NCBI GenBank assembly: GCA_963753695.1
Contig: CAVWDG010000009.1
Location: 73,975 to 137,974, forward strand
Direction: 5' to 3'
Length of the DNA stretch: 64,000 nucleotides
Source of the DNA: an uncultured Actinomycetes bacterium
Lineage (GTDB): Bacteria; Actinomycetota; Thermoleophilia; UBA2241
How positions within the stretch are numbered: position 1 is the stretch's first letter; every line of letters starts with the position of its first letter. The notes under the pieces were generated by a model, which worked only from the letters and a program-made list of their open reading frames with translations, made no database searches and was not told the DNA's origin. The position numbers and the translations under genes are program-made. Positions 34,084-52,644 of the stretch are shown here, one piece after another.

Positions 34084-34104
34084 GATGCCCCCCTACGTCG
34101 AGCG

Positions 34105-34128
34105 CCACTGACTGACCGGTCGATTAGC
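34105..34128. promoter_or_regulatory. Shared operator, copy 1
   Basis: CCACTGACTGACCGGTCGATTAGC; 21 of 24 positions match the copy at 51142. Confidence 0.72.
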
Positions 34129-34280
34129 TCGCCGGGAATCTTACCAGACCAGTCAACGGGCGCGGCCGGTATGGCTCCAGGCGGTGGCGATGCGTCGCCG
34201 GGCCGGCTCCGCGGCGGCGACGCGCCGCCGGCGGCCGACCCGCTGCGCTATGCTTGGCCGTGAACGCCAGCGGAGGCCGC

Positions 34281-35639
34281 GTGAGAACCATCGAAGAAGG
34301 GCCCAGGACGACCCCCGTCCTGTGCGAGACCGACGTGCTCGTCGTGGGCGGTGGCCCCGGCGGCCTGGCGGCGGCCGTGAGCGCGGCGCGCGAGGGCGCG
34401 CACACGACGCTCCTCGACCGCTACGGCTGCTTCGGCGGCGTCATCACCCAGGTCGGCATAGAGAGCGTGGCCTGGTATCGGCACGAGGGCACGACCGACC
34501 TCGAGGGCATCGGCATCGAGTTCGAGCAGCGCGCCAAGGCCTTCGGCGGCACGCAGGCCGAGTGTCAGTCGATAAGCGAGGCCCTCGACCCCGAGCTCTT
34601 CAAGTGCGTCGCCGACGAGCTGGTGCGCGAAGCCGGCGTGCAACCGCTGCTGCACTGCCTCGCGGTCGCGCCCATCGTCGCAGACGGAGCGGTCGGCGGG
34701 GTCGTGGTCGAGAGCAAGTCGGGGCGCCAGGCCGTTCTCGCGCGCCGCGTGATCGACGCCACCGGCGACGCCGACCTCGCCTACCGCGCCGGGGCGCCCT
34801 GCCGCACGACGCCGGTGGCCGAGATGATGGGCGTGAGCGTCGTCTTTTCGTGCTCCGGCGTCGATCGCGAGCGCTTCTTCGACTACGTGAGCGAGTGCGC
34901 GCCCACCTACAAGGACTGGACCGCCGGCTGGCGCATGGAGACGAGCGGCAAAGAAGACGATCTCTTCAGCCCCTTCCTGCAGGAGCCGTTCGACCTGGCG
35001 CGCGCCGCCGGCATCATCCCGGAGAGCATCACCAGCATCGGCGGCACCTGGAGCCGGATCTCCGACTCCGGCGAGGCCACCGGCCTCAACCTGGTCTACC
35101 TGTCGGGCTACGACTGCACCGACGTGACCGATCTCACGCGCGCCGAGATCGAGGGCCGCCGGCAGGTGCTGCTCGCCATCGAGGCCCTGCGGCGTTTTGC
35201 GCCGGGCTTTGCCGGCGCCCGCCTGCGCAACTTCGGCATGACCCTCGGCACGCGCGACTCACGCAAGATCCGCGGCCGCTACGAGCTCACCGCGCACGAC
35301 GTGCGCGGTGAGGCGCGCTTTGCCGACTCGGTCGGCATCTTCCCTGAGTTCATCGACGGCTACGGCGCCCTGGTGCTGCCCACCACGGGGCGCTACTTTC
35401 AGGTGCCCTACGGCGTGCTGGTGCCGCAGGGGGTCGAGAACCTGCTGGTCGCCGGGCGCTGCGTGGCGGGCGACCGGGTGGCGCACGCGGCCACGCGCAG
35501 CCAGATGTGCTGCGCCGTGACCGGCCAGGCGGCCGGCGCCGCCGCCGCCGTCTCGCTGCGCGACGGCACGACCACCTCGGGGGTCGCCGTGAGGCGAGTG
35601 CAGGCCGCTCTCGAACGCCAGGGCGTGCGGCTCTTCTGA
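34281..35639 (+). CDS. FAD-dependent oxidoreductase (FAD_oxidored-like family)
   Basis: DVLVVGGGPGG, VIDATGDADL, YFQVPYGVLVP..VENLLVAGRC. GTG 34281 with GGAGG SD. Confidence 0.88.
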   Translation: MRTIEEGPRTTPVLCETDVLVVGGGPGGLAAAVSAAREGAHTTLLDRYGCFGGVITQVGIESVAWYRHEGTTDLEGIGIEFEQRAKAFGGTQAECQSISEALDPELFKCVADELVREAGVQPLLHCLAVAPIVADGAVGGVVVESKSGRQAVLARRVIDATGDADLAYRAGAPCRTTPVAEMMGVSVVFSCSGVDRERFFDYVSECAPTYKDWTAGWRMETSGKEDDLFSPFLQEPFDLARAAGIIPESITSIGGTWSRISDSGEATGLNLVYLSGYDCTDVTDLTRAEIEGRRQVLLAIEALRRFAPGFAGARLRNFGMTLGTRDSRKIRGRYELTAHDVRGEARFADSVGIFPEFIDGYGALVLPTTGRYFQVPYGVLVPQGVENLLVAGRCVAGDRVAHAATRSQMCCAVTGQAAGAAAAVSLRDGTTTSGVAVRRVQAALERQGVRLF

Positions 35640-35783
35640 GCGGCGTCCACCGGCTACGCGACGACGGACGCCGCCACGGTCCGCCGTGGGGCGCATTTGT
35701 GTCAGGTTGACCGATTCTCGCCAGCAGTTCATGCTGACAGAGTGCCGTGTTTCAGAATAAACCAGCTCTGGCAAGGGGTTCTT

Positions 35784-35837
35784 CTACTAATTAACCGGTC
35801 AATCTCTCTTGCCATACCGCGAAACAGCTTGTATGGT
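35784..35837 (+). promoter_or_regulatory. Shared operator, copy 2, plus sigma70-type promoter
   Basis: CTACTAATTAACCGGTCAAT (35784-35803) just upstream of TTGCCA (35809-14)-N17-TATGGT (35832-37). Confidence 0.72.
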
Positions 35838-35929
35838 GCGACAAATGTGGTTAGGGCCGGAGAAGTCGTGCCGGCGCCGCGCCCAGTCCGGTCCGCGTCG
35901 CGGGTCTGAGCTCAGGGGGAGTATCGAAC

Positions 35930-37615
35930 ATGGACGACCAAGAGTACCGTAGGGAATATGGCCAGCACCTTGTAGAGCAGGTCATCAACGGCCAGATGAC
36001 CAGGCGCCAGCTGCTCGTGCGCGCTTCGGTCTTTGGCCTCTCCGCCACCGTCGTCGGCTCGCTCCTCGCAGCGTGCGGCAGCTCCGGCGGCTCGTCCGCG
36101 ACGTCGCCCTCGGCGGCCGCCAGCGGTAGCGCCCTTCCGCCCGTCGTCACCGGCGGCACGCTGAAGGCAGTCATTCCGCCGCCGCTCAAGACGCTCGACC
36201 CGGTCACGATCTACGACCAGGGCGGCATCGTCATGGTCTACCAGATCGCCGAGTACCTGATCGACCTCTCCAACACCAACGCCCTCAAGCCCAAGCTCGC
36301 TCTCAGCTGGACTCCCAACCAGAAGGGCGACGTCTGGACCTTCAATCTGCGCCAGGGCGTCACGTTCAACGACGGCACTCCCTTCGAGGCCGCCGACGTG
36401 GTCGCCAGCATCGAGCGCGTGATCAACCCCAAGAGCGGTTCGGGCGCCCTCGCCGCCCTCGCCGGCATCCTCTCGCCGGGCGGCACCAAGGCCACCGACA
36501 CGCACACCGTGACCTTCAACCTCGACAAGCCCTTCGCCGACTTCCCGTACCTGGTGAGCTCGTCGTCGTACAACACGGCCATCCTGCCGCGTAACTACGC
36601 CGGCGACTTCCAGAAGAAGCCGATCGGCACCGGCCCCTGGATGGTCAAGACCTACGTCCCCAACCAGCACGCCGATCTCGTCAAGAACCCGACCTACTGG
36701 GGCAAAGACGCTCAGGGTCGCCAGCTGCCGTACCTCGACGGGCTCAACTTCGCGTTCGTCACCGACACCTCGGCCGCCAACCTGCAGCTCCAGTCGGGCG
36801 CCGTCGACGTGCAGCCGCAGACCGTGTTCCAGGGCGGCGCGTCGGTGCTCAGCGATTCCGCTCTGCGCGTCGACGTCTACCCGTCCAGCGGTATCCGCGA
36901 GGTCGCCTTCAACGTCACCAAGGCGCCGTGGACCGACAAGCGCGTCCGCCAGGCCGTGGCGTACAGCCTCGACCGCAAGGCCATCAACCAGGCCCTCTAC
37001 GGCGGCCGCAGCAACCTCGGCTACGACACCTTCTGGGAGCCGGCTGTCTTCCCGGGCAGCCCGCCCTCGACCGTGCGCACCCAGGACTACGCCAAGGCCA
37101 AGTCGCTGCTCTCTGCAGCCGGCCACACGAGCCTCGACGTCACGCTGACCGTGGCCAACTACCTCGAGAACCCGGCCTACGCGCAGCTCATCCAGGCGCA
37201 GTGCAAGCCGGCCGGCATCAACGTCAAGATCAACGAGATCAGCTACAACGCGATCTACGCCGGCACCAACGCCACCACGCCGTGGCTGAACGCGCCGATG
37301 GTCATCGTCGAGTGGGGCAGCCGGCCTACGCCGGGCGTCTACGCTCAGGCCATGCTGCTGCCGACCAGCGCCTGGAGCTCCTCGCACTGGAACAACCCGG
37401 CCTTCGTGAAGGCCTTCAACGCGTACGAGTCGACCACCGACGAAGCGAGCCGCACCACGCTGGCCACGCAGCTCTCCTCGATCCAGCAGGACGACACGCC
37501 GATCCTCGTGGCGTTCTACATCTCGCAGCTGCGCACCCAGAAGAAGAACGTCTACAACATCCAGGGTCCGGGCTCGTTCTACTTCGACGCCAGCCAGGCC
37601 TACATCACCAAGTGA
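35930..37615 (+). CDS. ABC substrate-binding lipoprotein (family 5, Dpp/Opp-like), Tat-type signal
   Basis: TRRQLL twin-Arg, LAAC lipobox, WTFNLRQGVTFNDG, PIGTGPW. Confidence 0.92.
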   Translation: MDDQEYRREYGQHLVEQVINGQMTRRQLLVRASVFGLSATVVGSLLAACGSSGGSSATSPSAAASGSALPPVVTGGTLKAVIPPPLKTLDPVTIYDQGGIVMVYQIAEYLIDLSNTNALKPKLALSWTPNQKGDVWTFNLRQGVTFNDGTPFEAADVVASIERVINPKSGSGALAALAGILSPGGTKATDTHTVTFNLDKPFADFPYLVSSSSYNTAILPRNYAGDFQKKPIGTGPWMVKTYVPNQHADLVKNPTYWGKDAQGRQLPYLDGLNFAFVTDTSAANLQLQSGAVDVQPQTVFQGGASVLSDSALRVDVYPSSGIREVAFNVTKAPWTDKRVRQAVAYSLDRKAINQALYGGRSNLGYDTFWEPAVFPGSPPSTVRTQDYAKAKSLLSAAGHTSLDVTLTVANYLENPAYAQLIQAQCKPAGINVKINEISYNAIYAGTNATTPWLNAPMVIVEWGSRPTPGVYAQAMLLPTSAWSSSHWNNPAFVKAFNAYESTTDEASRTTLATQLSSIQQDDTPILVAFYISQLRTQKKNVYNIQGPGSFYFDASQAYITK

Positions 37616-37650
37616 CGACCGTAGCAAGAAACTGACGTAAGGGGACCGGG

Positions 37651-38598
37651 ATGGGGCGCCTCATCGGGCGGCGACTGCTGCTCATGGTACCGACGCTTAT
37701 TCTGGTGTCGATCCTCGTGTTTGCCTTGGCAGAGGTCCTGCCGGGCAACGTGGGGCGCTTCATCCTCGGTCCCTACGCCACGCAGTCGGCCGTCGACCAG
37801 CTCAACCGCAACCTGGGCATGGACAAGCCCATCTACGTGCGGTACGTCGAGTGGGCCGGCCACTTCGTCACCGGCCACTGGGGCACGTCGCTCCAGTACA
37901 GCACACCGGTGTCTTCCATCGTGTGGCACGCCTTGGGCAACTCGTTGCTCCTGGCCGGTTTCGCCCTGGTGATCATCGTGCCGACGTCGATCCTCGTCGG
38001 CGTCTATGCCGGCCTGCGACGCGACAGCTTCATCGATCGGGCTATCACCATCTCGTCGCTCTCGATGACCGTCATTCCCGAGTTCGTGAGCGGCGTCATC
38101 CTCATCGTGGTGTTCGCCGTCACCCTGCACTGGCTGCCGGCGGCCGCCATGCCGCCGCAGGGTTCGCCCTTCATCGACCGCTTCTACTACCTCATCCTGC
38201 CGGCCATCCCGCTCATGCTGATCGAGCTCGGCTACATCGCGCGCATGGCTCGCGTGGGCACTGTGCAGGTGCTCAACATGCCCTACATACGCACGGCCGT
38301 GCTCAAGGGCCTGCCAAAGCGCCGCGTCGTCTTCGGCCATGTGCTGCGCAACGCCCTGGTACCGACCGTCACCGTGATCGGCAGTCAGGTCGGCTGGCTG
38401 ATCGGCGGTCTCGTGGTCATCGAGTTCCTGTTCGTCTACCCGGGCATCGGCAACTACATGGTCAATGCGGCCCTCAACCACGACCTGCCGTTGCTCGAGG
38501 CCTGTGTGCTGGTCATCGCGCTGATCTACCTGTTCTCCAACTTGATCGCCGACATCGTGGTCGCGCTGCTCAACCCGCGCATCCGCATGGGGGGCTGA
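37651..38598 (+). CDS. ABC permease (DppB-like)
   Basis: EAA-like loop YIRTAVLKGL; VLRNALVP. Confidence 0.92.
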   Translation: MGRLIGRRLLLMVPTLILVSILVFALAEVLPGNVGRFILGPYATQSAVDQLNRNLGMDKPIYVRYVEWAGHFVTGHWGTSLQYSTPVSSIVWHALGNSLLLAGFALVIIVPTSILVGVYAGLRRDSFIDRAITISSLSMTVIPEFVSGVILIVVFAVTLHWLPAAAMPPQGSPFIDRFYYLILPAIPLMLIELGYIARMARVGTVQVLNMPYIRTAVLKGLPKRRVVFGHVLRNALVPTVTVIGSQVGWLIGGLVVIEFLFVYPGIGNYMVNAALNHDLPLLEACVLVIALIYLFSNLIADIVVALLNPRIRMGG

Positions 38599-38599
38599 G

Positions 38600-39493
38600 G
38601 TGGCGGCCACCAGCCCCGACCGCCAGATGGACGAGCTGCAAGCCGACGCCGCGGCGTCGGCCGAATCGCGCCGCCAGCGCCGCTACCTCGTCAAAACGCT
38701 GCTGCGCAGTCCCACGTTCGTCACCGGCTGCCTCATCGTGCTCTTCTGGATCGTCATGGGCGTCTTTTCGACCCTGTTCACGCAAGCTCCAGCCTTGCCC
38801 CACCCGTTCGCCATTCTGCAGTCGCCCAGCGGCTCGCACTGGTTCGGTACCGACGACCTCGGGCGCGACGTGTTCGCGCGCACCATGGCCGGCGCCCGCA
38901 CGGTGCTCATCATCGCGCCGCCCGCCACCATCCTCGCGCTCCTGTGGGGCGGCATGGTCGGCCTCATCGCCGGCTTTCATCGGGGCCTGCTCGACGACGT
39001 CATGATGCGCATCGTCGACGCCTTCCTGGCGCTGCCGATCATCATCACCTCGATCCTCGTCATCACGCTGCTCGGCAGGTCGTACGCCGTCCTCATCGTC
39101 GTCATCGGGGCGCTGTTCACGCCGGTGGTCTCGCGTACCATCCGCTCGGCGGTCATCGGCGAGCGCGAGCGCGAGTACGTCATGGCGGCGCGTCTGCGCG
39201 GCGAGCGCTCGGCGTTCATCATGGCGCGCGAGATCCTGCCCAACATCACGCAGCCGATCATCGTCGAGGGCACGGTGCGCCTGGGCTACGCCGTGTTCAC
39301 CGTCGCCACGCTGTCGTTCCTCGGCTTCGGGCTCGAGCCGCCTTCGCCCGACTGGGGCCTCACCGTCGCGGTCGAGCGGGCCAACCTGCAAGCTGCGCCG
39401 TGGACGGTGCTGTTCCCCGCCTTGGCCCTTGCGTCGCTGGTGGTGGGCGTCAACCTCGTGGCCGACGGCCTGAGCTCGGTGTTCTCCAAATGA
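38600..39493 (+). CDS. ABC permease (DppC-like)
   Basis: HWFGTDDLGRD, EYVMAARLRG, LSFLGFG..PPSPDWG. Confidence 0.92.
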   Translation: MAATSPDRQMDELQADAAASAESRRQRRYLVKTLLRSPTFVTGCLIVLFWIVMGVFSTLFTQAPALPHPFAILQSPSGSHWFGTDDLGRDVFARTMAGARTVLIIAPPATILALLWGGMVGLIAGFHRGLLDDVMMRIVDAFLALPIIITSILVITLLGRSYAVLIVVIGALFTPVVSRTIRSAVIGEREREYVMAARLRGERSAFIMAREILPNITQPIIVEGTVRLGYAVFTVATLSFLGFGLEPPSPDWGLTVAVERANLQAAPWTVLFPALALASLVVGVNLVADGLSSVFSK

Positions 39494-41682
39494 GCGTCGT
39501 GGACCGGCCCGTCGTCCCCGAGGGACCGACGCCGCCGGCGCTCGACGTCCACGACCTCGAGGTCACGTTCCATCGGCGCGGCCGCGACCTGCCGGTGCTG
39601 CGCGGCGTCACGCTGCACATCAAGCCGGGCGAGGCCTACGGTCTGGTCGGCGAGTCGGGCTGCGGCAAGACCACGCTGGCCATGGCGGCCCTGCGCTACC
39701 TGGCCGCCAACGGCACCGTCGACGCCGGCAAGGTGTCGGTCGAGGGCCGCGACGTGAGCACGCTCTCAGACGAGGCGCTGCGCAAATGGCGCGGCGAGGC
39801 CGTCTCCATGGTCTATCAAGACCCGGCCACGGCGCTCAGCCCCGCCATGCGCGTCGGCGACCAGGTCGCCGAGGTCTTCCGCTACCACGAGGGCCTGCCC
39901 AAAAAAGAAGCGTTGATCCGCGCCCGGGAGAGCCTGCGCAAAGTCGCGCTGCCCGACCCCGACGCCACCATGCGGCGCTACCCGTTCGAGCTCTCGGGCG
40001 GCCAGCAGCAGCGTGTCGTGATCGCCATGGCGCTGGCCGTGAACCCCCACCTGCTGGTGCTCGACGAGCCCACCACCGGGCTCGACGCCACGGTCGAGGC
40101 CGAGATCCTCGACCTGATCGAAGAGCTGCGCGGCCGTATTCACGCCGCCATCCTGCTGATCACCCACAACCTGGGCCTGGTGGCGCGCCTTTGCGAGCGC
40201 GTCGGCGTGCTCTACGCCGGGCGCCTGGTCGAAGAAGGGCCGGCGCACCAGATCTTCACCGACCCGCGCCACCCCTACACCATGGGGTTGCTGCGCTGCG
40301 TGCCGAAGTTCGGCATGAACAAGACCGACGCCGCGTTGCAGACCATCCCCGGCACGCTGCCGGCGCTGGGCGAGCCGCTCGACGGCTGCGTGTACTCGGC
40401 GCGCTGCCCGGTGGCCAAGCCGGTCTGCACCAGGCGCGAGCCTGACCTCTTCGCCTGGCCCAGCGATGCGCCGGCCGAGGGGCGCGCGTGGGCCGAGGCG
40501 CAGCCGCCCGACCCCGCCATGTTCTCGCCGCATCACTCCAACCCCGTGGGCGATGCCGCCCGCCATTCGCGCTGCTATTTCGCCGCTGATGTCCCCGACA
40601 TGCCGCACGGCACGCCCGTGCTGGCCACGAGCCTCGAAGTCCGGGTAGGCACGGTCGGCGACGTGCTCGACATCGAATCGATGCGGCGCAGCTTCAGAGA
40701 CGGCAGCAAGAGGCTGACGGCCGTGAGCGACGTCTCGCTTAGCCTGCGCCGCGGCGAGACCTTCGGCCTGGTCGGCGAGTCGGGCAGCGGCAAGACCACG
40801 CTGGCCAAGTGCATCACAGGCCTGATCGCCGCCGACTCCGGCACGGTCACCTTCGAGGGTAAGCAGCTGCGCTCCACCGCGGGCCGCCGCTCGCAAGAGG
40901 CGCTGCGCGCCATCCAGATGGTCTTCCAGAACCCCGACTCCACGCTCAACCCCGCCTGGAGCACGCGCGCCATCCTCACGCGCGCGGTGCGCAAGCTGGG
41001 CAGCGGCGGCGGGGTGCGCGCCAAGGTCGACAAGCTCTCCGCCGACGTGCGGGTCGAGCCGCGCTTTTTGGCGCAGAAGCCCACCGACCTGTCGGGCGGC
41101 CAGAAGCAGCGCATCGCCATCGCGCGCGCCTTCGCCGGCGACCCCACCCTCGTGGTGTGCGACGAGCCCGCGTCGGCGCTCGACGTCTCGGTGCAGGCGA
41201 GCATCCTCAACCTGCTCGTCGAGCTGCAGACCAAAGAGCAGGTCTCGTATGTCTTCATCTCGCACGACCTGGCGGTCGTGCGCTACATCTCCGACCGCAT
41301 CGGCGTTATGTACCTGGCCGAGCTGATCGAGGTGGGCTCGGCCGACGAGGTCTTCAACGCGCCGCACCACCCCTACACCGAGGCGCTGCTGTCGTCCATT
41401 CCCAAGCTCGAGTTCGGCGTGGAGCAGCAGCGCATACCGCTGCGCGGCTCCATGCCCAGCCTGAGCGAGCCGCCGACCGGCTGCCGCTTTCACACCCGCT
41501 GCCACAGGTTCCTCGGCGACATCTGCGTGCAACAGGAGCCGCCGCTGCAGGAGCCGGCCAGCGGCCACACCTACAAGTGCCACATCCCGCCCGACGAGCT
41601 CCTGGCCGCCCAGCTGATCACCGCGGGCGCTTCGGCGACGCCCGATCCTGCGGGCGAGCCCGGCGGGCCCAGCGACTCCTAG
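39490..41682 (+). CDS. Fused DppD/DppF ABC ATPase
   Basis: Two NBDs (GESGCGKT and GESGSGKT; LSGGQ twice) with C-terminal Cys motifs; ATGA overlap. Confidence 0.92.
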   Translation: MSVVDRPVVPEGPTPPALDVHDLEVTFHRRGRDLPVLRGVTLHIKPGEAYGLVGESGCGKTTLAMAALRYLAANGTVDAGKVSVEGRDVSTLSDEALRKWRGEAVSMVYQDPATALSPAMRVGDQVAEVFRYHEGLPKKEALIRARESLRKVALPDPDATMRRYPFELSGGQQQRVVIAMALAVNPHLLVLDEPTTGLDATVEAEILDLIEELRGRIHAAILLITHNLGLVARLCERVGVLYAGRLVEEGPAHQIFTDPRHPYTMGLLRCVPKFGMNKTDAALQTIPGTLPALGEPLDGCVYSARCPVAKPVCTRREPDLFAWPSDAPAEGRAWAEAQPPDPAMFSPHHSNPVGDAARHSRCYFAADVPDMPHGTPVLATSLEVRVGTVGDVLDIESMRRSFRDGSKRLTAVSDVSLSLRRGETFGLVGESGSGKTTLAKCITGLIAADSGTVTFEGKQLRSTAGRRSQEALRAIQMVFQNPDSTLNPAWSTRAILTRAVRKLGSGGGVRAKVDKLSADVRVEPRFLAQKPTDLSGGQKQRIAIARAFAGDPTLVVCDEPASALDVSVQASILNLLVELQTKEQVSYVFISHDLAVVRYISDRIGVMYLAELIEVGSADEVFNAPHHPYTEALLSSIPKLEFGVEQQRIPLRGSMPSLSEPPTGCRFHTRCHRFLGDICVQQEPPLQEPASGHTYKCHIPPDELLAAQLITAGASATPDPAGEPGGPSDS

Positions 41683-41785
41683 CGACTCCTGGCGCGCAGG
41701 CCGCCCAGCCAAGGGGCAACGGACTCAGGCGGCTCATCGCGCGCACGCTGTCCGGCTACGGGCGACGGACCCCAGCGAATGCCGG

Positions 41786-43749: not shown

Positions 43750-45188
43750 AGCGGAAAGATCGTCCCCACGTTCATGATGCCGGCGGGGTCGAAGGCCGTC
43801 TTGAGCGTCTCGAGGATGTAGTAGGAGGAGCCGTACTCCTGCTTCACCCACGGCGCCCGCGCCTTGCCCATGCCGTGGTGGTGCACGATCGAGCCGCCGC
43901 GCTTGAGGGTCTCCTCGCAGATGATGGCGATGATGGGCAGGTAGTACTTGTCGGTCTCGTGCTCGGGGCCCACGCCGACCACGTTGAAGAAGTAGTTGAA
44001 GTACATGTTGGTGCCGTTGATGTAGCTGTGCGACGAGTGACCGCCCATCATGGTGATGTCGGGGATCTCGGCGATGATGCGCGCCCGCGCCGCCTGGTAG
44101 ATGTCGTTGATCGAGCCCCAGTCGGCGGAGATCTCGGTGGTGCGGTTCACGTTGTGGGTCTGGCGGATGCGGTCGTCTTCGGCGGTGATCTTGCTCGCAT
44201 CCCAGCAGAGGTCGTTGAACCAGGTCTCGATGTAGGCGCTGTCGACCGGCGTGCACTCCGGGTGGCGTGCGACGATCTCGGCGATGCCCTCGGCCGTCGC
44301 CTCGGCGATCCCGGCGGGGCCCTCGGCCATGAAGAGCAGCACGCAGTCGTCGGGGGCGGCGAAGTGCGAGAAGTGGATGCCGGCGTCGCCCGGGTCGTAG
44401 ACCCGCGCCACCGACGGTTTGTAGCCGTTCACCATGACGTCGCGTAGCGCCTCGAAGCCGACCTTCATGTCCTTGAGCGTCCAGCCGAGGAACGTGTTGT
44501 TGGCGGGGAAGTACGGGAAGAGCTTCACCGTGACCTCGGTGATGAAGCACAGGGCGCCCTCGTTGCCGATGACGACGTGGCGGATGTCGGGCCCAGCGGC
44601 GCGGCGCGGCACGTTCTTGATGCGCGTCACGGCGCCGTTGGGGAAGACCGCCTCGAGGCCGACGACCATGTCTTCGATGCCGCCGTACAGCGTGGAGAAC
44701 TGCCCGATGCTGCGTGTCGCCACGAGCCCGCCCATGTGGGCCACCGGCTTTGACTGCGGGGAGTGGCCCGTGGTGAGCCCCAGCTCGCGCGCGCGGTCTT
44801 CGAGCGCCTGCAGCGGCACGCCGCACTGACAGGTGGCCTGCATGTTGTAGGCGTCGATACTGACGATCTCGTTCATGGCGGAGCCGTCGATGATGATCGA
44901 GTCGGGTACGGCGCTCTCGAGGCCGCCCTCGGTAGCCGTGCCGCCGGTGCGCGGTATGACGTTGATGCCGTGCTCGCCGGCAAAGCGCAGGACCGCGGCG
45001 ACCTGTTCGGCGCTGCGCACCATGGCGATCGCGGCCGGCACCGGCATCGTGTGCACGTCGAAGATGTTCTGCAGCTTGCGGAAGTTGTCGACGCTGCTCT
45101 GCACGAGGATCTTCTCGTCGGTCACGACGTCGGCGGGCGCGACGACGCGCCGCAGGCCCTCGGCGATGCCCTCTCTGCTCAGGTCCAT
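43746..45188 (-). CDS. FAD-linked oxidase/alkyl-DHAP-synthase-like (YgcU-like)
   Basis: PRTGGTATEGGLE, GHSPQSKP, TRSIGQFSTLYG, HSSHSY, HHHGMGK. Resembles E. coli YgcU (recalled, not searched). Confidence 0.88.
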   Translation of the reverse strand: MDLSREGIAEGLRRVVAPADVVTDEKILVQSSVDNFRKLQNIFDVHTMPVPAAIAMVRSAEQVAAVLRFAGEHGINVIPRTGGTATEGGLESAVPDSIIIDGSAMNEIVSIDAYNMQATCQCGVPLQALEDRARELGLTTGHSPQSKPVAHMGGLVATRSIGQFSTLYGGIEDMVVGLEAVFPNGAVTRIKNVPRRAAGPDIRHVVIGNEGALCFITEVTVKLFPYFPANNTFLGWTLKDMKVGFEALRDVMVNGYKPSVARVYDPGDAGIHFSHFAAPDDCVLLFMAEGPAGIAEATAEGIAEIVARHPECTPVDSAYIETWFNDLCWDASKITAEDDRIRQTHNVNRTTEISADWGSINDIYQAARARIIAEIPDITMMGGHSSHSYINGTNMYFNYFFNVVGVGPEHETDKYYLPIIAIICEETLKRGGSIVHHHGMGKARAPWVKQEYGSSYYILETLKTAFDPAGIMNVGTIFPL

Positions 45189-45257
45189 GGTGGCGATCCT
45201 TTTTCTACTCGCTTGGTGTGTCGGACTGTACGGCCGGGCCGGTCTCTGATGCCCTGG

Positions 45258-46694
45258 TCAGTGGAAGATCGGGTAGGAACGCTCGAGGATGCCGTCGGTG
45301 GCCGTGCCGATGCTCTGGTAGACGGTGCGGTTCATCTGGTGGTAGACGTCGGCGTTGGCCGGGTGCGACGCGAACGACTCGCGCGCTTTGGTCATGCGGG
45401 CCACGGCCGTGTCGAAGTCGGGGTAGACGCCCGTGGCGACCGCCGCGCAGATGGCGGCGCCCAGGCTCGCCCCGCCGCTTGCCACACAGCGCGACGAGGG
45501 GATGCCGAAGACGTCGGCGAAGATGCTCATGAACAGGTCGCTGGCGGCGCCGCCGCCCGAGACGGCGATCGCCTCGAGCGTGATGCCGAGCTCGTCGCAC
45601 ATGGCGTCGACCTTGTTCTTCATGGTGAGGGCGATGGCTTCGAGGATCGAGCGGTAGACGTGCGCCCTGGTGTGGCGCGCGTCGAAGCCGATCATGACGC
45701 CCTTGCGGAAGGGCTTGTCGTCGGGCGCCAGCCAGTCGAGCACGGTCATGAGGCCGTCGCTGCCCGGCGCCACAAGCTGCGCCTCGCGTTCGAGGTAGAG
45801 CTCGCGCGAGATGCCGGAGGTGGCGGCGGCCTGGGCGAACTCCTCACCCAAAAGGTCGAGGAACCAGGTGATCGTCCACATGCCGCGGCGTATGCCGTGG
45901 CTTTCGTAGAGGTACTTGTGCGGCGCGCAGGCGAAGTTCGTCCAGAACTCGGTGGGCGTCTTTCTGTTCTCGTGGCCGTGCACCATGGAGGCGATGTAGG
46001 TGCCCAGCGAGACCAGCGCGGTCTTCTCGTCGATCGCGCCCGAGCCCAGCGCCTCGGTCGCCTTGTCGTTGGCCGTGGTGACCACCGGGAGTCCGACGGG
46101 GATGTCGGTCACCGCCGCGGCGGCGGCGGTGACGTAGCCGGCGACATCGCCCGGCATCTGCAGTTCGAACAGCATCTCGCGAGGTATGCTCCAGCGCTCG
46201 AAGGCCGCCTGGTCGTCGCTCCACTGCCACGTGTCGGTGTCGATCGGCCACTGACCCTCGATGTTGTTGGCCGCGCTGTCGTTGAAGCGCCCCGTGAAGC
46301 GGTGCGTGATGTAGCCCGACGAGGTGGTCACGTAGGCGGTCTCGGGGTTGTCGTGCGAGTAGGGGCGGTAGGCGCGCGTGTCCATCCAGCTCATCACGGG
46401 CGACGACAGCGTGCCGTCGCGCTTGAGGAAGGCGCGTTCGCAGCGGATGGTGCACAGGCCGAGCCCGATGATGTCGGCGGGGTCGCCGGTGAAGGCCGCC
46501 ATGGCGTGCCGGCTGGCCGCGGTGATCGTGTCCCAGAGGTCGTCGTCGGGGTGCTCCACGACGCCGTTACGCGGGCGGCTCATGGCTCGCAGGACCTGCC
46601 GGCCCTGACAGACGACGTTGCCCTCGAGGTCGAAGACGACCACCTTGGCGCTCTGCGAGCCGGCGTCGATTCCGATGATGTACTTGCCCGACAT
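45258..46694 (-). CDS. FGGY sugar kinase (YgcE-like)
   Basis: YIIGIDAGSQS, EHPDDDLW, SLGTYIA, YGIRRGMWT-like segment, GLMTVLDWL. Confidence 0.88.
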   Translation of the reverse strand: MSGKYIIGIDAGSQSAKVVVFDLEGNVVCQGRQVLRAMSRPRNGVVEHPDDDLWDTITAASRHAMAAFTGDPADIIGLGLCTIRCERAFLKRDGTLSSPVMSWMDTRAYRPYSHDNPETAYVTTSSGYITHRFTGRFNDSAANNIEGQWPIDTDTWQWSDDQAAFERWSIPREMLFELQMPGDVAGYVTAAAAAVTDIPVGLPVVTTANDKATEALGSGAIDEKTALVSLGTYIASMVHGHENRKTPTEFWTNFACAPHKYLYESHGIRRGMWTITWFLDLLGEEFAQAAATSGISRELYLEREAQLVAPGSDGLMTVLDWLAPDDKPFRKGVMIGFDARHTRAHVYRSILEAIALTMKNKVDAMCDELGITLEAIAVSGGGAASDLFMSIFADVFGIPSSRCVASGGASLGAAICAAVATGVYPDFDTAVARMTKARESFASHPANADVYHQMNRTVYQSIGTATDGILERSYPIFH

Positions 46695-46774
46695 CGTTGA
46701 TCTCTGCTCCCTGGTCATGAGTTGCTTGCGAGCCGGCCGACGGGCCTTGAGCGCGAGTCTGGCGCCGCGTCAGA

Positions 46775-47551
46775 CTAGCGGACCAGATAGCCACCATCCA
46801 CCAGCACGACGTGGCCGTTGACGTAGTCGGAGGCCCTGCTGGCGAGAAAGACGACGGCGCCCATGAGGTCGGCCGGGTCGCCCCAGCGGCCGGTGGGAAT
46901 GTGGTCGAGCACACGCTTGTTGGTCCCGGGGTTGCTGCGCGTCTGCGTGGTGATCTCGGTGGCGTAGTAGCCCGGCGCGATGCCGTTGACCTGGATGTTG
47001 TGCTGGGCGAGTTCGTCGCAGTAGGCCTTGGTGAGCCCGGCGATGCCGTGCTTGCTGGCGGCGTAGGCCGACGACCACTGTCCGCCCAGGTAGGTGAAGA
47101 CGGAGCAGATGTTGATGATCTTGCCGCTGCGCTGCGGGACCATGAGCTTGGCGGCCTCGTGGCTCATCTCGAAGGCGGCCGTCAGGTTGACCGCGATGGT
47201 GGCGTCCCACTGCGGCCGCCCGAAGTCGAAGACGTCGGCGAGCGGGCACACGCCCGCGCTGTTCACGAGGATGTCGAGCGAGCCGAAGCGCTCGACGCAG
47301 GCCGCGACGATCTGCTTGGGCACGCCGGGCGCCGTGATGTCGGCCTTCATGAACTCGTAGCGGCCGCCCGCGGCCGCGATCAGCGGACCGGTCGTGCCGT
47401 CGTCGTCGACGATGCTCGGCACGAGCACGTTGGCGCCGCCCTTGGCGAGCGCCAGGGCGAAGGCTTGGCCGAGACCGGTGTTGCCGCCGGTCACGACGGC
47501 GTTCTTGCCGTTCAGCGAGAAGAACTCCATCGTGAAATCGCTGATCTCCAT
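46775..47551 (-). CDS. SDR oxidoreductase (YgcW/KduD-like)
   Basis: TGGNTGLG, NSAG, YAASK catalytic motif, VDGGYLVR. Confidence 0.92.
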   Translation of the reverse strand: MEISDFTMEFFSLNGKNAVVTGGNTGLGQAFALALAKGGANVLVPSIVDDDGTTGPLIAAAGGRYEFMKADITAPGVPKQIVAACVERFGSLDILVNSAGVCPLADVFDFGRPQWDATIAVNLTAAFEMSHEAAKLMVPQRSGKIINICSVFTYLGGQWSSAYAASKHGIAGLTKAYCDELAQHNIQVNGIAPGYYATEITTQTRSNPGTNKRVLDHIPTGRWGDPADLMGAVVFLASRASDYVNGHVVLVDGGYLVR

Positions 47552-47774
47552 GGCGGCTGTCTCCTTTACCGGCGCTAGCGGTGTCGGGCTTGTCTGCTGG
47601 GGCGTTCATGCGCTCGCGGCCGCGTGCCGCGAGAACCTGAGTATTCGGCGGAAAGTTCGTCGAGTCAAGCCGTCAAAAGAACCTTCTGCCGTTGTGGATG
47701 GCGACGACGGCATTGTGCGCGTACCGACCGTCGTGCGGCAGCGGCGCGCCGCTGCTTTCGGGGGGCTTCGGCTC

Positions 47775-47805
47775 GAGCGCTTGCTCGGCTCCCGCTCAAG
47801 CGCTC
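47775..47805 (-). terminator. Hairpin at 3' end of the dehydrogenase gene
   Basis: GAGCGCTTG...CAAGCGCTC 9 bp stem. Confidence 0.45.
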
Positions 47806-48718
47806 ACTCGGGCTCCAGCTCGGCCGGGAACCCGGGCGCGCGCAGGTCGGTGCCCACGGCGTCCTCGAGCATCTTGACGACCATGGGCGACTGCGCGTCG
47901 CCGCCGTACAGGGCGCGGGCCCGGGCGAAGATCTGCTCGGTGAGGCCGGCGAGCTCGAGCGGCACGCCGAACTCGCGCCCCATCTGGTGAGCGAAGTAGA
48001 GGTCCTTGCGCGCCAGGTCCATGGTGAAGTTGATGTTGTAGCTGCCGTTCAGGATGAGCTGGCCCTCGGTCTCGTGCACGAAGCTGTTGCCCGAGCTCGC
48101 CTTGATCACGTCCCACGCCGTCTTTAGGTCGACACCGCTGCGCTTGGCCAGCATGAGCGCCTCGCCGTCGGCCACGAGGTGGATGAAGGCGAGCATGTTG
48201 GTGATCACCTTGATGGCCGACGCGCGGCCCAGCTCGCCGATGTAGAAGACGCGGTCGCCCATCGCCTGCAGGACCGGCAGGTGGCGCTCGTAGACGGCTT
48301 GCTCGCCGCCGACCAGCACGGTGATCATGCCGGCCGCGGCGCGGTGCACGCCGCCGGTCACCGGCGACTCGAGCACAGAGACGCCCTGCTCGGCCGCCAG
48401 GGCCGCGAGGCGCTGCAGCTCGTGGGGGTCGTTGGTGCTCATGTCGACCCAACTGCCGCCCGAGGCCAGGCCTTCGAGGATGCCCCGCGGGCCGGCCGTC
48501 ACCGCGGTCACGGCTTCGGGCGAGGGCAGGCAGGTGATGACCGTGTCGGAGAGGCGCGCCACGGCGGCCGGCGAGTCGGCCCAGGCGGCGCCCGCCTCGA
48601 GCAGCTCGTGCGCGGCCTTGGGGTCGATGTCGTGGACGGTCACCGTAAAGCCGGCGCGCAGCAGGCTGCCGGCCAGGTGGCGGCCCAGACTGCCCAGACC
48701 GATGTAGCCGATCTTCAT
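47804..48718 (-). CDS. NAD(P)-dependent dehydrogenase, 3-hydroxyisobutyrate DH family
   Basis: IGYIGLGSLG, ESPVTGG, catalytic Lys in AIKVITN. Confidence 0.9.
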   Translation of the reverse strand: MKIGYIGLGSLGRHLAGSLLRAGFTVTVHDIDPKAAHELLEAGAAWADSPAAVARLSDTVITCLPSPEAVTAVTAGPRGILEGLASGGSWVDMSTNDPHELQRLAALAAEQGVSVLESPVTGGVHRAAAGMITVLVGGEQAVYERHLPVLQAMGDRVFYIGELGRASAIKVITNMLAFIHLVADGEALMLAKRSGVDLKTAWDVIKASSGNSFVHETEGQLILNGSYNINFTMDLARKDLYFAHQMGREFGVPLELAGLTEQIFARARALYGGDAQSPMVVKMLEDAVGTDLRAPGFPAELEPE

Positions 48719-48802
48719 GTACGTCGCCTCCGTTGCTCGTGGGTGAAAGGTCGCGGCGCGCTCGCCGCTCTGCTCGTGGCGCTCGCTCGCCGCTCTATCG
48801 CT

Positions 48803-50263
48803 CTACTGGTGTCGCGCGCGACGGATGTCGTCGGGGCCTGCCTGGCAGATGGCGGCCAGGCCGTCGATCTGCTCGTCGCTCAGGCAGGGCTCCTTGGCGG
48901 CATGCGCGGCCAGCAGGCGCTCGACCGTGTCGCAGGCCACGTCGTTCTCGGTGCGGCCCTCTTCGAGCCACTTGTCGTAGGAGAGGCGGTTCGACACGCC
49001 CGGTTGCAGGTGCTCGCCCGCGCGCACGCGGCGCGCCGTGTCTTTCTCGCCGAGAAAGCCGCCCCCCGGACCCACCCGGGCGATGGACTCGGCGGCCAGC
49101 GTGGCGTCGGAGACCTCGACGTCGCCGTAGAGGCGGCGCACCATGGCGGCGATCTCGTCGTCGACGACCGACTGCGGGAGGTACATGGTGTTGTGCGAGT
49201 CGATCAGGCCCCAGCCCGTGACGATGTCGGGGTTGGCGCTGCACACGCCGGCTGCCTTGAGGGCCTTCTCGTAGCCGGTCTGCAGCCCCGCATGCTTGCT
49301 GTCGGTCGACAGCCCGGGACTCAGCGTGGGCACGCCCACGTAGTGGCCGACCTCGGTGGCCATGGCGGCCATGAGGGCGCTCTCGACACAGCCCAGCGAG
49401 AAGGTCGTGCGCAGCATGTCGAGCACGCCGGAGCCAAAGCAGAAGATGAGCCGCGCCCCGGGCGCGGCGACCTGCAGCGCGGTGGCGACGCCCAGGAACT
49501 CGGCGAGCCCCTGCACGACCGAGCCGGCCAGCGTGACCGGCGAGGTGGCCCCGGCGATCGTCATGGAGTAGACCTCGATGGGTATGCCCAGGGCGGCCAG
49601 CGCGACGTGCACGTCGAGCACCGGCCCTTCGACCTGGAGCGGCGAGGCGGCCGTGCAGACCGTCGAGAAGCGCGGCCGCTCGCGGAACGCGTCGAGGCTG
49701 CCCGAGAGCACCTCGCAGATGCGCACGACCGCGTCGACCTCGTTGGGGCAGTCGACGAAGGTCACGTGCTGCGCGGTCTCGGTGAGCATGGTGAAGTACT
49801 CGATGAGCTCGCGGCGCTCGAGCGCGACGTCGGTGGCGCTGACCTGGGTCCACATGAGATCGAGCTGCGGGAGCTCGTCCATGAGCGCCGTGCACTCGCG
49901 CAGGTCCTGCAGCGTGCTGGGGCGGCGCGCGCCCGTGCGAAAGTCGAGCGTCTTGGCGACGCAGCCGCTGGGCGCAAAGCGGAACTGCTGGTCGGCGCCG
50001 ATCAGGGCGTCGTCGGCCGGCGTGGCGCCGGCCATCGTGAAGGAGCGTGGACACTGGGCGATGGCCCACTCGACCAGCTCGCGGGGCAGGCGGACGATGC
50101 CGGTGGCCTCGTCGACCTGGGCGCCGCGCGCGGCCAGCAGGGGCAGCACGCGAGAACCGGCCAGGCGCATGCCCACCGTCGCCAGCAGGTCGATGGCCTG
50201 GTCTGCGATGCGGCTCTTCTCGTGCTCTGAGAGCCACGCGGTCCGTGCCTTCACAAGCCTCAC
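48803..50263 (-). CDS. Non-pyrrolysine MttB-superfamily methyltransferase
   Basis: GATSPVTLAG, PGLSTDSK (Ser at the Pyl-equivalent position), QTGYEK; no internal stop; GTG 50263. Confidence 0.88.
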   Translation of the reverse strand: MRLVKARTAWLSEHEKSRIADQAIDLLATVGMRLAGSRVLPLLAARGAQVDEATGIVRLPRELVEWAIAQCPRSFTMAGATPADDALIGADQQFRFAPSGCVAKTLDFRTGARRPSTLQDLRECTALMDELPQLDLMWTQVSATDVALERRELIEYFTMLTETAQHVTFVDCPNEVDAVVRICEVLSGSLDAFRERPRFSTVCTAASPLQVEGPVLDVHVALAALGIPIEVYSMTIAGATSPVTLAGSVVQGLAEFLGVATALQVAAPGARLIFCFGSGVLDMLRTTFSLGCVESALMAAMATEVGHYVGVPTLSPGLSTDSKHAGLQTGYEKALKAAGVCSANPDIVTGWGLIDSHNTMYLPQSVVDDEIAAMVRRLYGDVEVSDATLAAESIARVGPGGGFLGEKDTARRVRAGEHLQPGVSNRLSYDKWLEEGRTENDVACDTVERLLAAHAAKEPCLSDEQIDGLAAICQAGPDDIRRARHQ

Positions 50264-50382
50264 ACACCTTCCCTCGGGCCGCAGTCCGCGCGCCGGTGCG
50301 CGGGCTTGGCGGCGGCCCGCGCGGCGCGTCCGCAGGGACCGTTCGCAGGGCACGATGTCACCAGCCTCAGGCGGTGTCAACC

Positions 50383-50472
50383 CGAAACGTTTCGTTCCAA
50401 CGACAATCTACAGAAATGCTTGTCTTTGCAATGCAGATACTTGAACTGGCGGTGTGAAAGCGCAAGTATTGT
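50383..50472. promoter_or_regulatory. Divergent control region with palindromes
   Basis: Perfect CGAAACGTTTCG (50383-94); inverted ATACTTG/CAAGTAT pair in an AT-rich stretch. Confidence 0.5.
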
Positions 50473-50509
50473 GCATTCGCGCTGAGTATCGGCAGGGAGG
50501 AGCGTCGTC

Positions 50510-51082
50510 ATGATCAGAGTGGGGCAGGCCCCCTTCGGCACGGTCGCCATGGACGAGCTCGACCGCGGCATCATGCAGCTGCTGCGTCCCAACGCGCGGC
50601 GCTCCTATGCCAGCGTCGCGCGCGCCCTCGGCGTCTCCGAGCCCACGGTGCGCAACCGCGTCGACCGCCTCATCGCCAAGGGCGCCATCTTTCAGCGGGC
50701 GAGCGTCAACCCCGCGGCCATCGGCCTCCCCGTCGATGCCATGGTCGGCATCCGCGTGAACCGCGGGTACTCCAAGGGGGTGGGCGCGCGCCTCGCCGCC
50801 ATGGAGAACGTAGCCTACGTGGGCTACACCACAGGCTCGTTCGACATCCTGATCGAGGCGCACCTGCCCGACAACGAGGGCCTCTACAAGTTCTTGAACG
50901 AGGACCTCGAAGAGATCGAGGGCGTGGCCTACACCGAGACCTGGCACATCCTGCGCACCGACAAGACCAACATCGAGTGGGAGGGCGAGATGGTCGGGCA
51001 CGCCCCCATCGAGGTCGTCGACGACCTCGAAGCGGGCACCGCCGACGCGACGGCCGACGATCTCGAACCGGCCGGCGCCTGA
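50510..51082 (+). CDS. Lrp/AsnC family regulator
   Basis: MDELDRGIMQLLRPNARRSYASVARALGVSEPTVRNRV; TTGSFDILIE. Confidence 0.92.
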   Translation: MIRVGQAPFGTVAMDELDRGIMQLLRPNARRSYASVARALGVSEPTVRNRVDRLIAKGAIFQRASVNPAAIGLPVDAMVGIRVNRGYSKGVGARLAAMENVAYVGYTTGSFDILIEAHLPDNEGLYKFLNEDLEEIEGVAYTETWHILRTDKTNIEWEGEMVGHAPIEVVDDLEAGTADATADDLEPAGA

Positions 51083-51141
51083 CGGCGCCGGCCCTGCGAT
51101 CGGCGGCGCTTGACAAGCCTCGCCGGGCAGTGTCTGATGGG

Positions 51142-51165
51142 CTACTAATTGACCGGTCGATTAGC
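51142..51165. promoter_or_regulatory. Shared operator, copy 3
   Basis: CTAATTGACCGGTCGATTAG, near-perfect 20 bp palindrome (51145-64), 35 bp upstream of mtbB. Confidence 0.78.
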
Positions 51166-52618: not shown

Positions 52619-52644
52619 CGAAGGGCACCGATGGGAGGGCGGCG

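What the first reader, a model, noticed from the sequence alone, without database searches (positions are those of the whole stretch)
34105..51165. Three-site regulon defined by a shared palindrome CTAATTGACCGGTCRATTAG
Near-identical motifs occur at 34105-34128 (tetR/FAD oxidoreductase intergenic), 35784-35803 (just upstream of a TTGCCA-N17-TATGGT promoter of the ABC importer) and 51142-51165 (upstream of mtbB-mttB). This links genes 17 kb apart. Inference: the TetR at 33364-34083 binds these sites, and the orphan oxidoreductase and importer serve the same pathway as the Pyl methyltransferases.
Basis: partly seen in the sequence, partly recalled or inferred. Interest (0 to 1): 0.72.

Follow-up and report, generated by a model that had tools for sequence, protein, structure and literature searches.

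The report
TetR operator regulon for methylamine genes
A 20-base DNA palindrome found three times in this uncultured soil/peat actinobacterium is very probably the docking site of the neighbouring TetR-type repressor, putting the repressor gene, an ABC importer and the pyrrolysine-dependent dimethylamine/trimethylamine methyltransferase genes under one conventional switch.

Summary

It is not a common motif. A weight-matrix scan of the 2.13-Mb, 70% GC assembly scores these three sites 30-36 bits. The next hit scores 20 bits, and shuffled genomes reach at most 18.7.

Conservation is strong:
- 44 of 51 Thermoleophilia species genomes carry the site just upstream of the TetR orthologue.
- At least 10 of 15 close relatives carry it beside the promoter of the SBP_bac_5 ABC importer.
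- 14 of 15 carry it 6 nt after the -10 of the mtbB-mttB promoter.
- It is absent beside 15 TetR paralogues and from same-genus genomes that lack the orthologue.

The adjacent Lrp gene does not co-occur with the motif.

In relatives the FAD oxidoreductase has its own promoter with a GntR/HutC-type operator, so regulon membership is not shown.

The mechanism is ordinary TetR repression with autoregulation. The inducer is unknown, probably a methylated amine. The regulon is undescribed in the literature I could search, though sister findings of this scan report the same wiring.

The parts
34108..34127 (.). Operator S1 (CTGACTGACCGGTCGATTAG), 25 nt upstream of the tetR start codon
   Evidence: 32.0 bits. 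The same site lies upstream of the TetR orthologue in 13 of 15 relatives and 44 of 51 species genomes.
35787..35806 (.). Operator S2 (CTAATTAACCGGTCAATCTC), ending 2 nt before the -35 of the ABC importer promoter
   Evidence: 30.4 bits. Conserved with the same spacing to TTGCCA-N17-TATGGT in 10 genomes.
51145..51164 (.). Operator S3 (CTAATTGACCGGTCGATTAG), starting 6 nt after the -10 of the mtbB promoter
   Evidence: 36.5 bits. Conserved between Lrp or the non-Pyl mttB and mtbB in 11 genomes. A diverged form lies 66 nt upstream of mtbB in three genus-g6 genomes.
33364..34083 (-). tetR: TetR-family regulator with a BetI-type C-terminal domain; presumed binder
   Evidence: PF00440 43.3 bits and PF13977 33.4 bits, both above cut-off. 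Orthologues of 57-88% identity always sit next to the palindrome.
34138..34146 (-). Putative extended -10 of the tetR promoter (TGGTAAGAT on the minus strand); the operator starts 10 nt downstream
   Evidence: The block ATCCTATCA (reverse complement TGATAGGAT) is conserved right of S1 in 13 genomes. Its promoter role is inferred.
35809..35837 (+). ABC importer promoter, TTGCCA-17-TATGGT
   Evidence: conserved in 10 genomes.
35930..41682 (+). Opp/Dpp-type ABC importer operon: SBP_bac_5 35930-37615, permeases 37651-38598 and 38600-39493, fused double ATPase 39490-41682
   Evidence: Pfam; synteny with S2.
51110..51138 (+). mtbB promoter, TTGACA-17-TCTGAT
   Evidence: TTGACA-N17-TNTRRT is conserved in 11 genomes at fixed spacing to S3. 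It falls below the threshold of the consensus scan.
51200..52618 (+). mtbB: Pyl-type dimethylamine methyltransferase, TAG at 52246-52248; broken here by about 8 +1 frameshifts
   Evidence: Orthologues are intact with one TAG, for example G002:C34:133208-134563.
52645..54139 (+). mttB: Pyl-type trimethylamine methyltransferase, TAG at 53627-53629, one frameshift near 53110

Best explanation
The palindrome is the operator of the TetR-family repressor encoded at 33364-34083. The TetR presumably acts as a dimer, one 10-bp half-site (CTAATTGACC) per monomer, and without its ligand occupies three promoters.

(1) Its own promoter. The operator lies about +5 to +24 downstream of an extended -10, giving autorepression. 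In this genome the 4HBT thioesterase and FGGY kinase genes downstream of tetR are probably co-transcribed.

(2) The promoter of an SBP_bac_5-type ABC importer. The operator abuts the -35 hexamer. It may also act as a roadblock for a weaker upstream promoter.

(3) The promoter of mtbB-mttB, the pyrrolysine-dependent dimethylamine and trimethylamine methyltransferases. The operator starts 6 nt after the -10 and so covers the transcription start.

Binding of an inducer to the BetI-type C-terminal domain would release the repressor and switch on uptake and demethylation together. The inducer is unknown. I infer a methylated amine, or the precursor the importer brings in.

Shown: the sites, their rarity, their conservation, their co-occurrence with the TetR orthologue, and their fixed spacing to conserved promoter hexamers. 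Inferred: binding, the direction of regulation, and the ligand.
For: Rarity.

The site lies beside the TetR orthologue in 13 of 15 relatives and beside none of 15 paralogue loci. It lies beside the TetR gene in 44 of 51 GTDB species genomes.

The pattern AYYRACCGGTCRRT gives 38 distinct sites in the 15 orthologue-bearing genomes. The other 46 genomes have 23, mostly GC-rich variants. The same-genus genomes without the orthologue (G005, G008, G009) have none, and the reversed-pattern control gives about zero.

S2 and S3 keep both their gene context and their spacing to the promoter hexamers across genera g1, g6 and g10.

Paralogous TetRs of the same subfamily sit next to other mtbB copies at least 20 times. 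Each has its own related palindrome, for example CTAATCAATCGAYTGATTAG, CTAACCAAATGGTTAG and TTATCC..GGATAG. The recognition-helix residues differ between these operator classes.

S2 lies upstream of its promoter, so it cannot be an element of the RNA made from that promoter.
Against: S2 sits at about -57 to -38, which is less typical for a repressor, so activation there cannot be excluded.

Two orthologue-bearing genomes lack a clear S1: G010 has a degenerate one and G033 has none.

The mtbB copy in this assembly is frameshifted, so the target may not be functional here if the shifts are real.

A paralogous TetR with a similar operator sits next to an APC permease site in G035 (L046), so cross-talk is possible.
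Confidence: 0.85

Rival explanations
1. The Lrp/AsnC regulator encoded at 50510-51082, immediately upstream of S3, is the protein that binds the palindrome.
For: It is adjacent to S3 in most genomes, and Lrp-type proteins bind AT-rich palindromes (established knowledge).
Against: S1 and S2 are not near the Lrp gene. G001 has only a 26-aa remnant and G007 has no orthologue, yet both keep the sites. G008 and G015 have the Lrp orthologue but no site and no TetR orthologue. The G+C centre (CCGG) is unlike the A/T-rich centres recalled for Lrp boxes.
Confidence: 0.03
2. The sites are bound by another, unlinked regulator, for example a paralogous TetR of the same subfamily. The adjacent TetR would only be one of its targets.
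For: The genomes hold many paralogous TetRs with related CTAAT..ATTAG-type operators. In G035 a 43%-identical paralogue sits beside a similar site.
Against: The motif tracks the presence of this orthologue, not of the paralogues, which occur in nearly all family genomes, including the motif-free G005, G008 and G009. Each paralogue examined has a different palindrome beside it.
Confidence: 0.07
3. The palindrome acts as RNA: a 5' hairpin of 8 bp with a CCGG loop that stabilises or attenuates the transcripts. It would not be a protein operator.
For: S1 and S3 are predicted to lie at the very 5' end of their transcripts, and the sequence could fold.
Against: S2 lies upstream of the conserved -35/-10 and is not in that mRNA. 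Arm differences between sites are not compensatory: S1 has C5 opposite A16, and the outer arm of S2 is unpaired. The site co-occurs with a DNA-binding protein gene.
Confidence: 0.03
4. Same binder, but at S2 the TetR activates rather than represses the importer promoter.
For: The operator centre is about -47, upstream of the -35, which is the position of class I/II activators.
Against: TetR-family activators are rare (established knowledge). The promoter already has good hexamers, 9 of 12. The operator ends 2 nt from the -35, so a bound dimer should clash with sigma region 4. S1 and S3 are in classic repressor positions.
Confidence: 0.08

Closest known systems
BetI of Escherichia coli (choline-responsive TetR-family repressor of betT and betIBA)
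   Same: TetR_N HTH plus the Pfam 'BetI-type' C-terminal domain PF13977. It is the best NCBIfam hit. It is encoded beside its operator and controls a transporter plus enzymes for a methylated amine. The E. coli betI-betT intergenic region holds ATTGGACGTTCAAT, which has the same ATTG..CAAT outer arms and 14-bp core length. That this is the BetI box is from memory.
   Different: Only 28% identity over 65 residues. It scores 35.7 bits against a cut-off of 201.3 for TIGR03384. The operator centre is CCGG rather than ACGT. The targets are Pyl-dependent corrinoid methyltransferases and an Opp-type ABC importer, not choline oxidation genes. One operator is 17 kb from the regulator.
TetR/tetO and the general TetR-family repressor design (QacR, AcrR, EthR)
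   Same: A homodimeric HTH repressor and a 15-28 bp palindromic operator overlapping the promoter or transcription start, with autoregulation and presumed ligand-induced release.
   Different: Three dispersed operators form a small regulon rather than one divergent pair, and the ligand and function are unrelated to drug efflux.
Sister TetR-operator regulons of mtbB operons noted by this scan in related Thermoleophilia (e1-4520576, e1-1476127, e1-1241812, e1-4920832)
   Same: The same logic: a TetR of this subfamily, a 16-20 bp palindrome on the promoters of mtbB, an SBP_bac_5 importer and an AOR operon. e1-4520576 appears to be the orthologous system.
   Different: The other notes concern paralogous modules with different palindromes (TTAGTTA-N6-TAACTAA, CCACC-N2-GGTGG). 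They are AI notes, not published or independent evidence.

Membership tests
TetR family of transcriptional regulators (the protein) | N-terminal TetR-type HTH domain (PF00440) above the gathering score | tested here: met
   43.3 bits against a cut-off of 24, residues 42-88. PDB relatives are all TetR-family proteins.
TetR family of transcriptional regulators (the protein) | All-helical C-terminal ligand-binding and dimerisation domain | tested here: met
   PF13977 TetR_C_6 scores 33.4 bits against a cut-off of 27. No structure was predicted.
TetR-type operator (the DNA sites) | Palindromic site of about 15-28 bp beside or near the regulator gene, conserved with it | tested here: met
   A 20-bp palindrome lies upstream of the gene in 44 of 51 species genomes and is absent beside paralogues.
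TetR-type operator (the DNA sites) | Overlap with promoter elements or the transcription start of the target genes | tested here: inconclusive
TetR-type operator (the DNA sites) | Specific binding by the cognate TetR and release by a ligand | not testable with these tools
   Needs EMSA or footprinting and a ligand screen.
BetI (choline-binding repressor, TIGR03384 / PRK00767) | Score above the curated equivalog cut-off | tested here: not met
   35.7 bits against 201.3, and 33.5 against 118. BLASTP gives 28% identity in the HTH only.
BetI (choline-binding repressor, TIGR03384 / PRK00767) | Control of betT and betIBA-type choline oxidation genes | tested here: not met
   The targets are an ABC importer, mtbB-mttB and, in relatives, AOR-ADH and an APC permease.
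Lrp/AsnC box | Co-occurrence of the site with the Lrp gene | tested here: not met
   Motif without Lrp in G001 and G007; Lrp without motif in G008 and G015.

The most novel reading that the evidence does not exclude
This TetR may be a direct sensor of a methylated amine: TMA, DMA or a quaternary or tertiary precursor taken up by the SBP_bac_5 importer. It would be one member of a co-expanded array of TetR-mtbB modules. Genomes of this family hold up to about 15 mtbB paralogues, many with their own TetR and a distinct operator. If so, these soil and peat Thermoleophilia run a bank of separately switched pyrrolysine-dependent demethylases, possibly with different substrates. This would be the first transcriptional switch defined for bacterial Pyl-dependent methylamine catabolism.
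Probability: 0.35. Interest if true: 0.7.

Novelty: new member of a known kind. Interest (0 to 1): 0.45.

Why it matters
I found no described regulator or operator for bacterial pyrrolysine-dependent methylamine methyltransferase genes in the searchable literature.

The operator ties mtbB-mttB to an importer annotated only as 'peptide/nickel-type'. In relatives it also ties them to a tungsten-type aldehyde oxidoreductase, an alcohol dehydrogenase and an APC permease. This gives a testable guess at a pathway: uptake of a methylated amine whose carbon skeleton ends as an aldehyde.

It also supplies a clean 20-bp operator and repressor pair that could serve as a ligand sensor once the inducer is known.

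Ecologically, the carriers are abundant uncultured Thermoleophilia of bogs, palsas, lake sediments and Danish soils, where methylamine turnover feeds methane and nitrogen cycling.

Tried and rejected
(1) Fourth site at C11:363500 (20.3 bits). It overlaps the -35 of a conserved promoter before a PcsB-like secreted protein. The palindromic part exists only in G000, G002 and G004, and partly in G007. I judged it a chance match.

(2) FAD oxidoreductase as a regulon member. Rejected as unproven. It has its own GntR-type operators in relatives, and these are lost here together with the GntR gene.

(3) pyl and corrinoid operons in the regulon. No site was found in G000 (62% complete) or in the near-complete G011 and G029 with the patterns used.

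(4) Lrp as the binder.

(5) BetI equivalence.

(6) Other pattern hits inside ORFs or without the CTAAT arms (G010:C5, G029:C9, G001:C301) look like chance.

(7) Literature. There were no relevant hits for TetR with mttB or trimethylamine methyltransferase; the 'TetR' hits were 'tetrahydrofolate'.

(8) Rfam gave no family for the conserved leader at C11.

Full report
OBSERVATION

The palindrome is present three times.
- S1 is at 34108-34127 (CTGACTGACCGGTCGATTAG).
- S2 is at 35787-35806 (CTAATTAACCGGTCAATCTC).

S1 and S3 were found with up to 3 mismatches, where 100 dinucleotide-preserving shuffles gave none. S2 lies 3 nt from the stated coordinates. It has four mismatches, three of them in the outer arm that runs into the promoter.

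The window is C9:73975-137974 of a 2.13-Mb, 16-contig, 70% GC assembly that is 62% complete. Across the whole assembly, the 20-mer with up to 5 mismatches occurs only at these three places and once at C11:363500.

I built a weight matrix from 34 orthologous sites (29 bits of information). It scores the three window sites 36.5, 32.0 and 30.4 bits. The next hits score 20.3 and 16.3 bits, and five shuffled genomes peaked at 9.6-18.7 bits. The motif is therefore rare and specific, not a common repeat.

GENE CONTEXT (Pfam)

- tetR, 33364-34083 (-): TetR_N plus the BetI-type C-terminal domain. It is followed on the same strand by a 4HBT thioesterase and an FGGY kinase.
- S1.
- FAD_oxidored gene. The likely start is the GTG at 34293, behind a GGAGG; the gene ends at 35639.
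- S2.
- Opp/Dpp-type ABC importer, 35930-41682: SBP_bac_5, two permeases, fused double ATPase.
- A minus-strand block: ETF alpha and beta, FAD-linked oxidase, FGGY kinase, SDR, HIBADH-like dehydrogenase, and a non-Pyl MttB homologue (48803-50380).
- Lrp/AsnC gene, 50510-51082 (+).
- S3.
- mtbB, 51200-52618, TAG at 52246.
- mttB, 52645-54139, TAG at 53627.

In this assembly mtbB is split by about eight +1 frameshifts and mttB by one. The orthologues in relatives are intact with a single TAG, for example G002:C34:133208-134563. An earlier follow-up of this scan judged the shifts to be assembly errors, and I did not re-examine that.

WHO BINDS: COMPARATIVE EVIDENCE

Among 60 relatives, 14 carry a TetR orthologue (57-88% identity), in three genera of one family. 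With this genome that makes 15. All other hits are paralogues of at most 51% identity.

The palindrome lies directly upstream of the orthologue in 13 of these 15 genomes. It lies beside none of 15 paralogue loci.

The strict pattern AYYRACCGGTCRRT gives 38 distinct sites in the 15 orthologue-bearing genomes. The other 46 genomes have 23, mostly GC-rich variants such as ACCGACCGGTCGGT. The three same-genus genomes without the orthologue (G005, G008, G009) have none, and the reversed-pattern control gives about zero.

A scan of GTDB species genomes returned 51 TetR relatives, all from uncultured Thermoleophilia or Actinomycetota MAGs of bog, palsa, lake sediment and soil. Of these, 44 have a site scoring at least 23 bits 40-320 nt upstream of the gene. 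One further locus has no upstream sequence.

WHAT THE SITE CONTROLS

S2-type sites precede the SBP_bac_5 gene by about 125-140 nt in 10 genomes. They are always followed within about 2-3 nt by TTGCCA-N17-TATGGT. An eleventh candidate, G004:C73, was seen but its context was not checked.

S3-type sites lie between Lrp (or the non-Pyl mttB) and mtbB in 11 genomes. They are always preceded by TTGACA-N17-TNTRRT, with the operator starting about 6-7 nt after that hexamer.

The three genus-g6 genomes carry a diverged form, TAACTGACCGGATAGATA, 66 nt upstream of an mtbB copy. That makes 14 of 15 for S3.

In most relatives S1 is also preceded by a rightward TTGACA-17-TNNAAT promoter. It drives an aldehyde:ferredoxin oxidoreductase and a Zn-dependent alcohol dehydrogenase. 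That promoter and those genes are missing in G000, G002 and G004.

Three relatives (G030, G035, G036) have a further site in front of an APC-family permease.

RIVAL BINDER: Lrp

G001 has only a 26-residue remnant of the Lrp gene and G007 has no orthologue, yet both keep the sites. G008 and G015 have the Lrp orthologue but have no sites and no TetR orthologue. The Lrp more plausibly serves the divergent non-Pyl mttB block.

SUPPORT FROM PARALOGUES

TetRs of the same subfamily sit within about 0.2-2 kb of other mtbB copies at least 20 times in the lists. Examples are G004:C7, G002:C16, G007:C63, G010:C3, G011:C18 and G029:C7.

This genome has a second cluster on contig C2: non-Pyl mttB, TetR (45% identity), mtbB and mttB.

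The paralogues examined each have their own palindrome next to the gene.
- CTAATCAATCGACTGATTAG in L028, and the similar CTACTCAATCGATTGATTAG at G000 C1:455.
- TAATCACTTGATTGATTA in L030.
- GCTAACCAAATGGTTAGC in L023, and TTAACCGAATGGTTAA in L018.
- TTATCCGATTGGATAG in L016, and TTATCCACCTGGGTGGGATAG on G000 C2.

The recognition helix differs between the groups: GENKAM[IV][AS]YYF in the orthologues, GENSAMVQYYF, GENKAMT[KR]YYF and so on in the others. This pattern is expected if each TetR reads the palindrome beside it.

MECHANISM (inferred from spacing)

At mtbB, the promoter is TTGACA (51110-51115), a 17-nt spacer, then TCTGAT (51133-51138). The operator begins at 51145, about +1, so a bound dimer would block initiation.

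At tetR, the block ATCCTATCA right of S1 is conserved. Its reverse complement is TGATAGGAT (here TGGTAAGAT, 34146 to 34138), which reads as an extended -10 pointing at tetR. The operator lies 10 nt downstream, which gives autorepression.

At the importer, the operator ends 2 nt before the -35, with its centre at about -47. The most likely effect is occlusion of the -35 and UP region. A weaker conserved upstream promoter (CTGACA-16-AAYAAT) may also be roadblocked. Activation cannot be excluded.

An RNA-hairpin role is unlikely. S2 lies outside its transcript, and arm differences between sites are not compensated.

The FAD oxidoreductase is not shown to belong to the regulon. In G003, G006, G029, G030, G034 and G035 it has its own -10 (TATGCT) preceded by two tandem TGGTATGTACCA boxes, a GntR/HutC-type motif. 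A GntR-UTRA gene lies between it and S2.

G000 has lost that regulator gene and has no such box anywhere in the assembly. Its close relatives G002 and G004 also lack the boxes upstream of the gene, or appear to. The TATGCT -10 remains, about 120 nt downstream of S1.

The oxidoreductase stays a conserved neighbour of the importer, so a functional link is still plausible.

No site was found at pyl or corrinoid genes in G000, nor in the near-complete G011 and G029.

The C11:363500 hit overlaps the -35 of a promoter before a PcsB-like gene and is not conserved as a palindrome.

COMPARISON WITH KNOWN SYSTEMS

The protein is a bona fide TetR-family member. Its best named relative is BetI, but at 35.7 bits against a cut-off of 201 and 28% identity in the HTH only. 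It is BetI-like in fold, not a BetI.

The E. coli betI-betT spacer contains ATTGGACGTTCAAT. This shares the ATTG..CAAT arms, a resemblance only.

I found no paper describing a TetR or an operator for mttB or mtbB.

Other agents of this scan have reported the same kind of regulon in related genomes, including what looks like the orthologous system with AOR. These notes agree with my results but are not independent evidence.

VERDICT

This is a real, strongly conserved and conventional TetR operator regulon. Its content is new: Pyl-dependent methylamine methyltransferases plus an Opp-type importer. I rate the confidence that the palindrome is this TetR's operator at 0.85. The ligand and the sign of regulation at S2 remain open.

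Noticed in passing
window 51200-54139: mtbB is broken by about eight frameshifts, all in the +1 direction, and mttB by one near 53110. The paralogous mtbB on contig C2 (about 33600-34900) is also shifted. Neighbouring genes are intact, and orthologues in relatives are intact with one TAG. The cause may be consensus errors among many paralogues.
   Followed up: partly
L049:2952-3839 (G029) and upstream of the FAD oxidoreductase gene in L034, L036, L045, L049, L053, L055: Relatives carry a GntR-UTRA (PhnR/HutC-like) regulator gene between the FAD oxidoreductase and S2. They also carry two tandem TGGTATGTACCA boxes before the oxidoreductase -10 (TATGCT). G000 has lost the gene and has no such box anywhere in the assembly; G002 and G004 also lack the boxes upstream of the oxidoreductase, or appear to.
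   Followed up: partly
window 35720-35738: A second conserved inverted repeat, GCCAGCAGTTCATGCTGAC (GTCAGCAnTTCATGCTGAC in relatives), lies about 50 nt upstream of S2 and overlaps a possible upstream -35. It is near-unique in the genome: one 3-mismatch match lies elsewhere (C10:211199). The binder or role is unknown.
   Followed up: partly
relatives G001-G036: This Thermoleophilia family carries up to about 15 mtbB hits per genome, each listed hit with a single TAG. At least 20 of them lie within about 2 kb of a TetR paralogue of the same subfamily.
   Followed up: partly
G000 contig C2:28120-36492 (outside the window): A paralogous cluster: Lrp, non-Pyl mttB (53%), TetR (45%), mtbB, mttB (70-74%). 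A different palindrome, TTATCCACCTGGGTGGGATAG, lies between the TetR and mtbB.
   Followed up: partly
window 34147-34156: A weak extra half-site, GACCAGTCAA, lies 34 nt (centre to centre) from S1. It is conserved as GACnnGTCAAC in most but not all relatives. It could be an auxiliary operator or an upstream promoter element of tetR.
   Followed up: no
L059:342-3341 (G029); L060; L010, L011, L013: In relatives S1 carries a rightward promoter driving an aldehyde:ferredoxin oxidoreductase and a Zn-ADH. A glycerol-3-phosphate-dehydrogenase-like DAO gene and a class-V aminotransferase lie nearby. All of these are absent between tetR and the FAD oxidoreductase in G000, G002 and G004.
   Followed up: partly
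L105:1183-1202 and 1338-1357: One species genome has two perfect copies of the operator (CTAATCGACCGGTCAATTAG) 155 nt apart upstream of tetR.
   Followed up: no
L109, L110, L113 at about 2173-2234: Three more distant TetR relatives have a palindrome of another class, CTAATTGATCGATTGATTAG, immediately downstream of the TetR gene, and only weak sites upstream.
   Followed up: no
G000 C11:363520-363680 (L061:2020-2180): A conserved GC-rich leader lies between a promoter and a PcsB-like secreted protein gene. It looks structured, but Rfam gave no match at gathering thresholds.
   Followed up: partly
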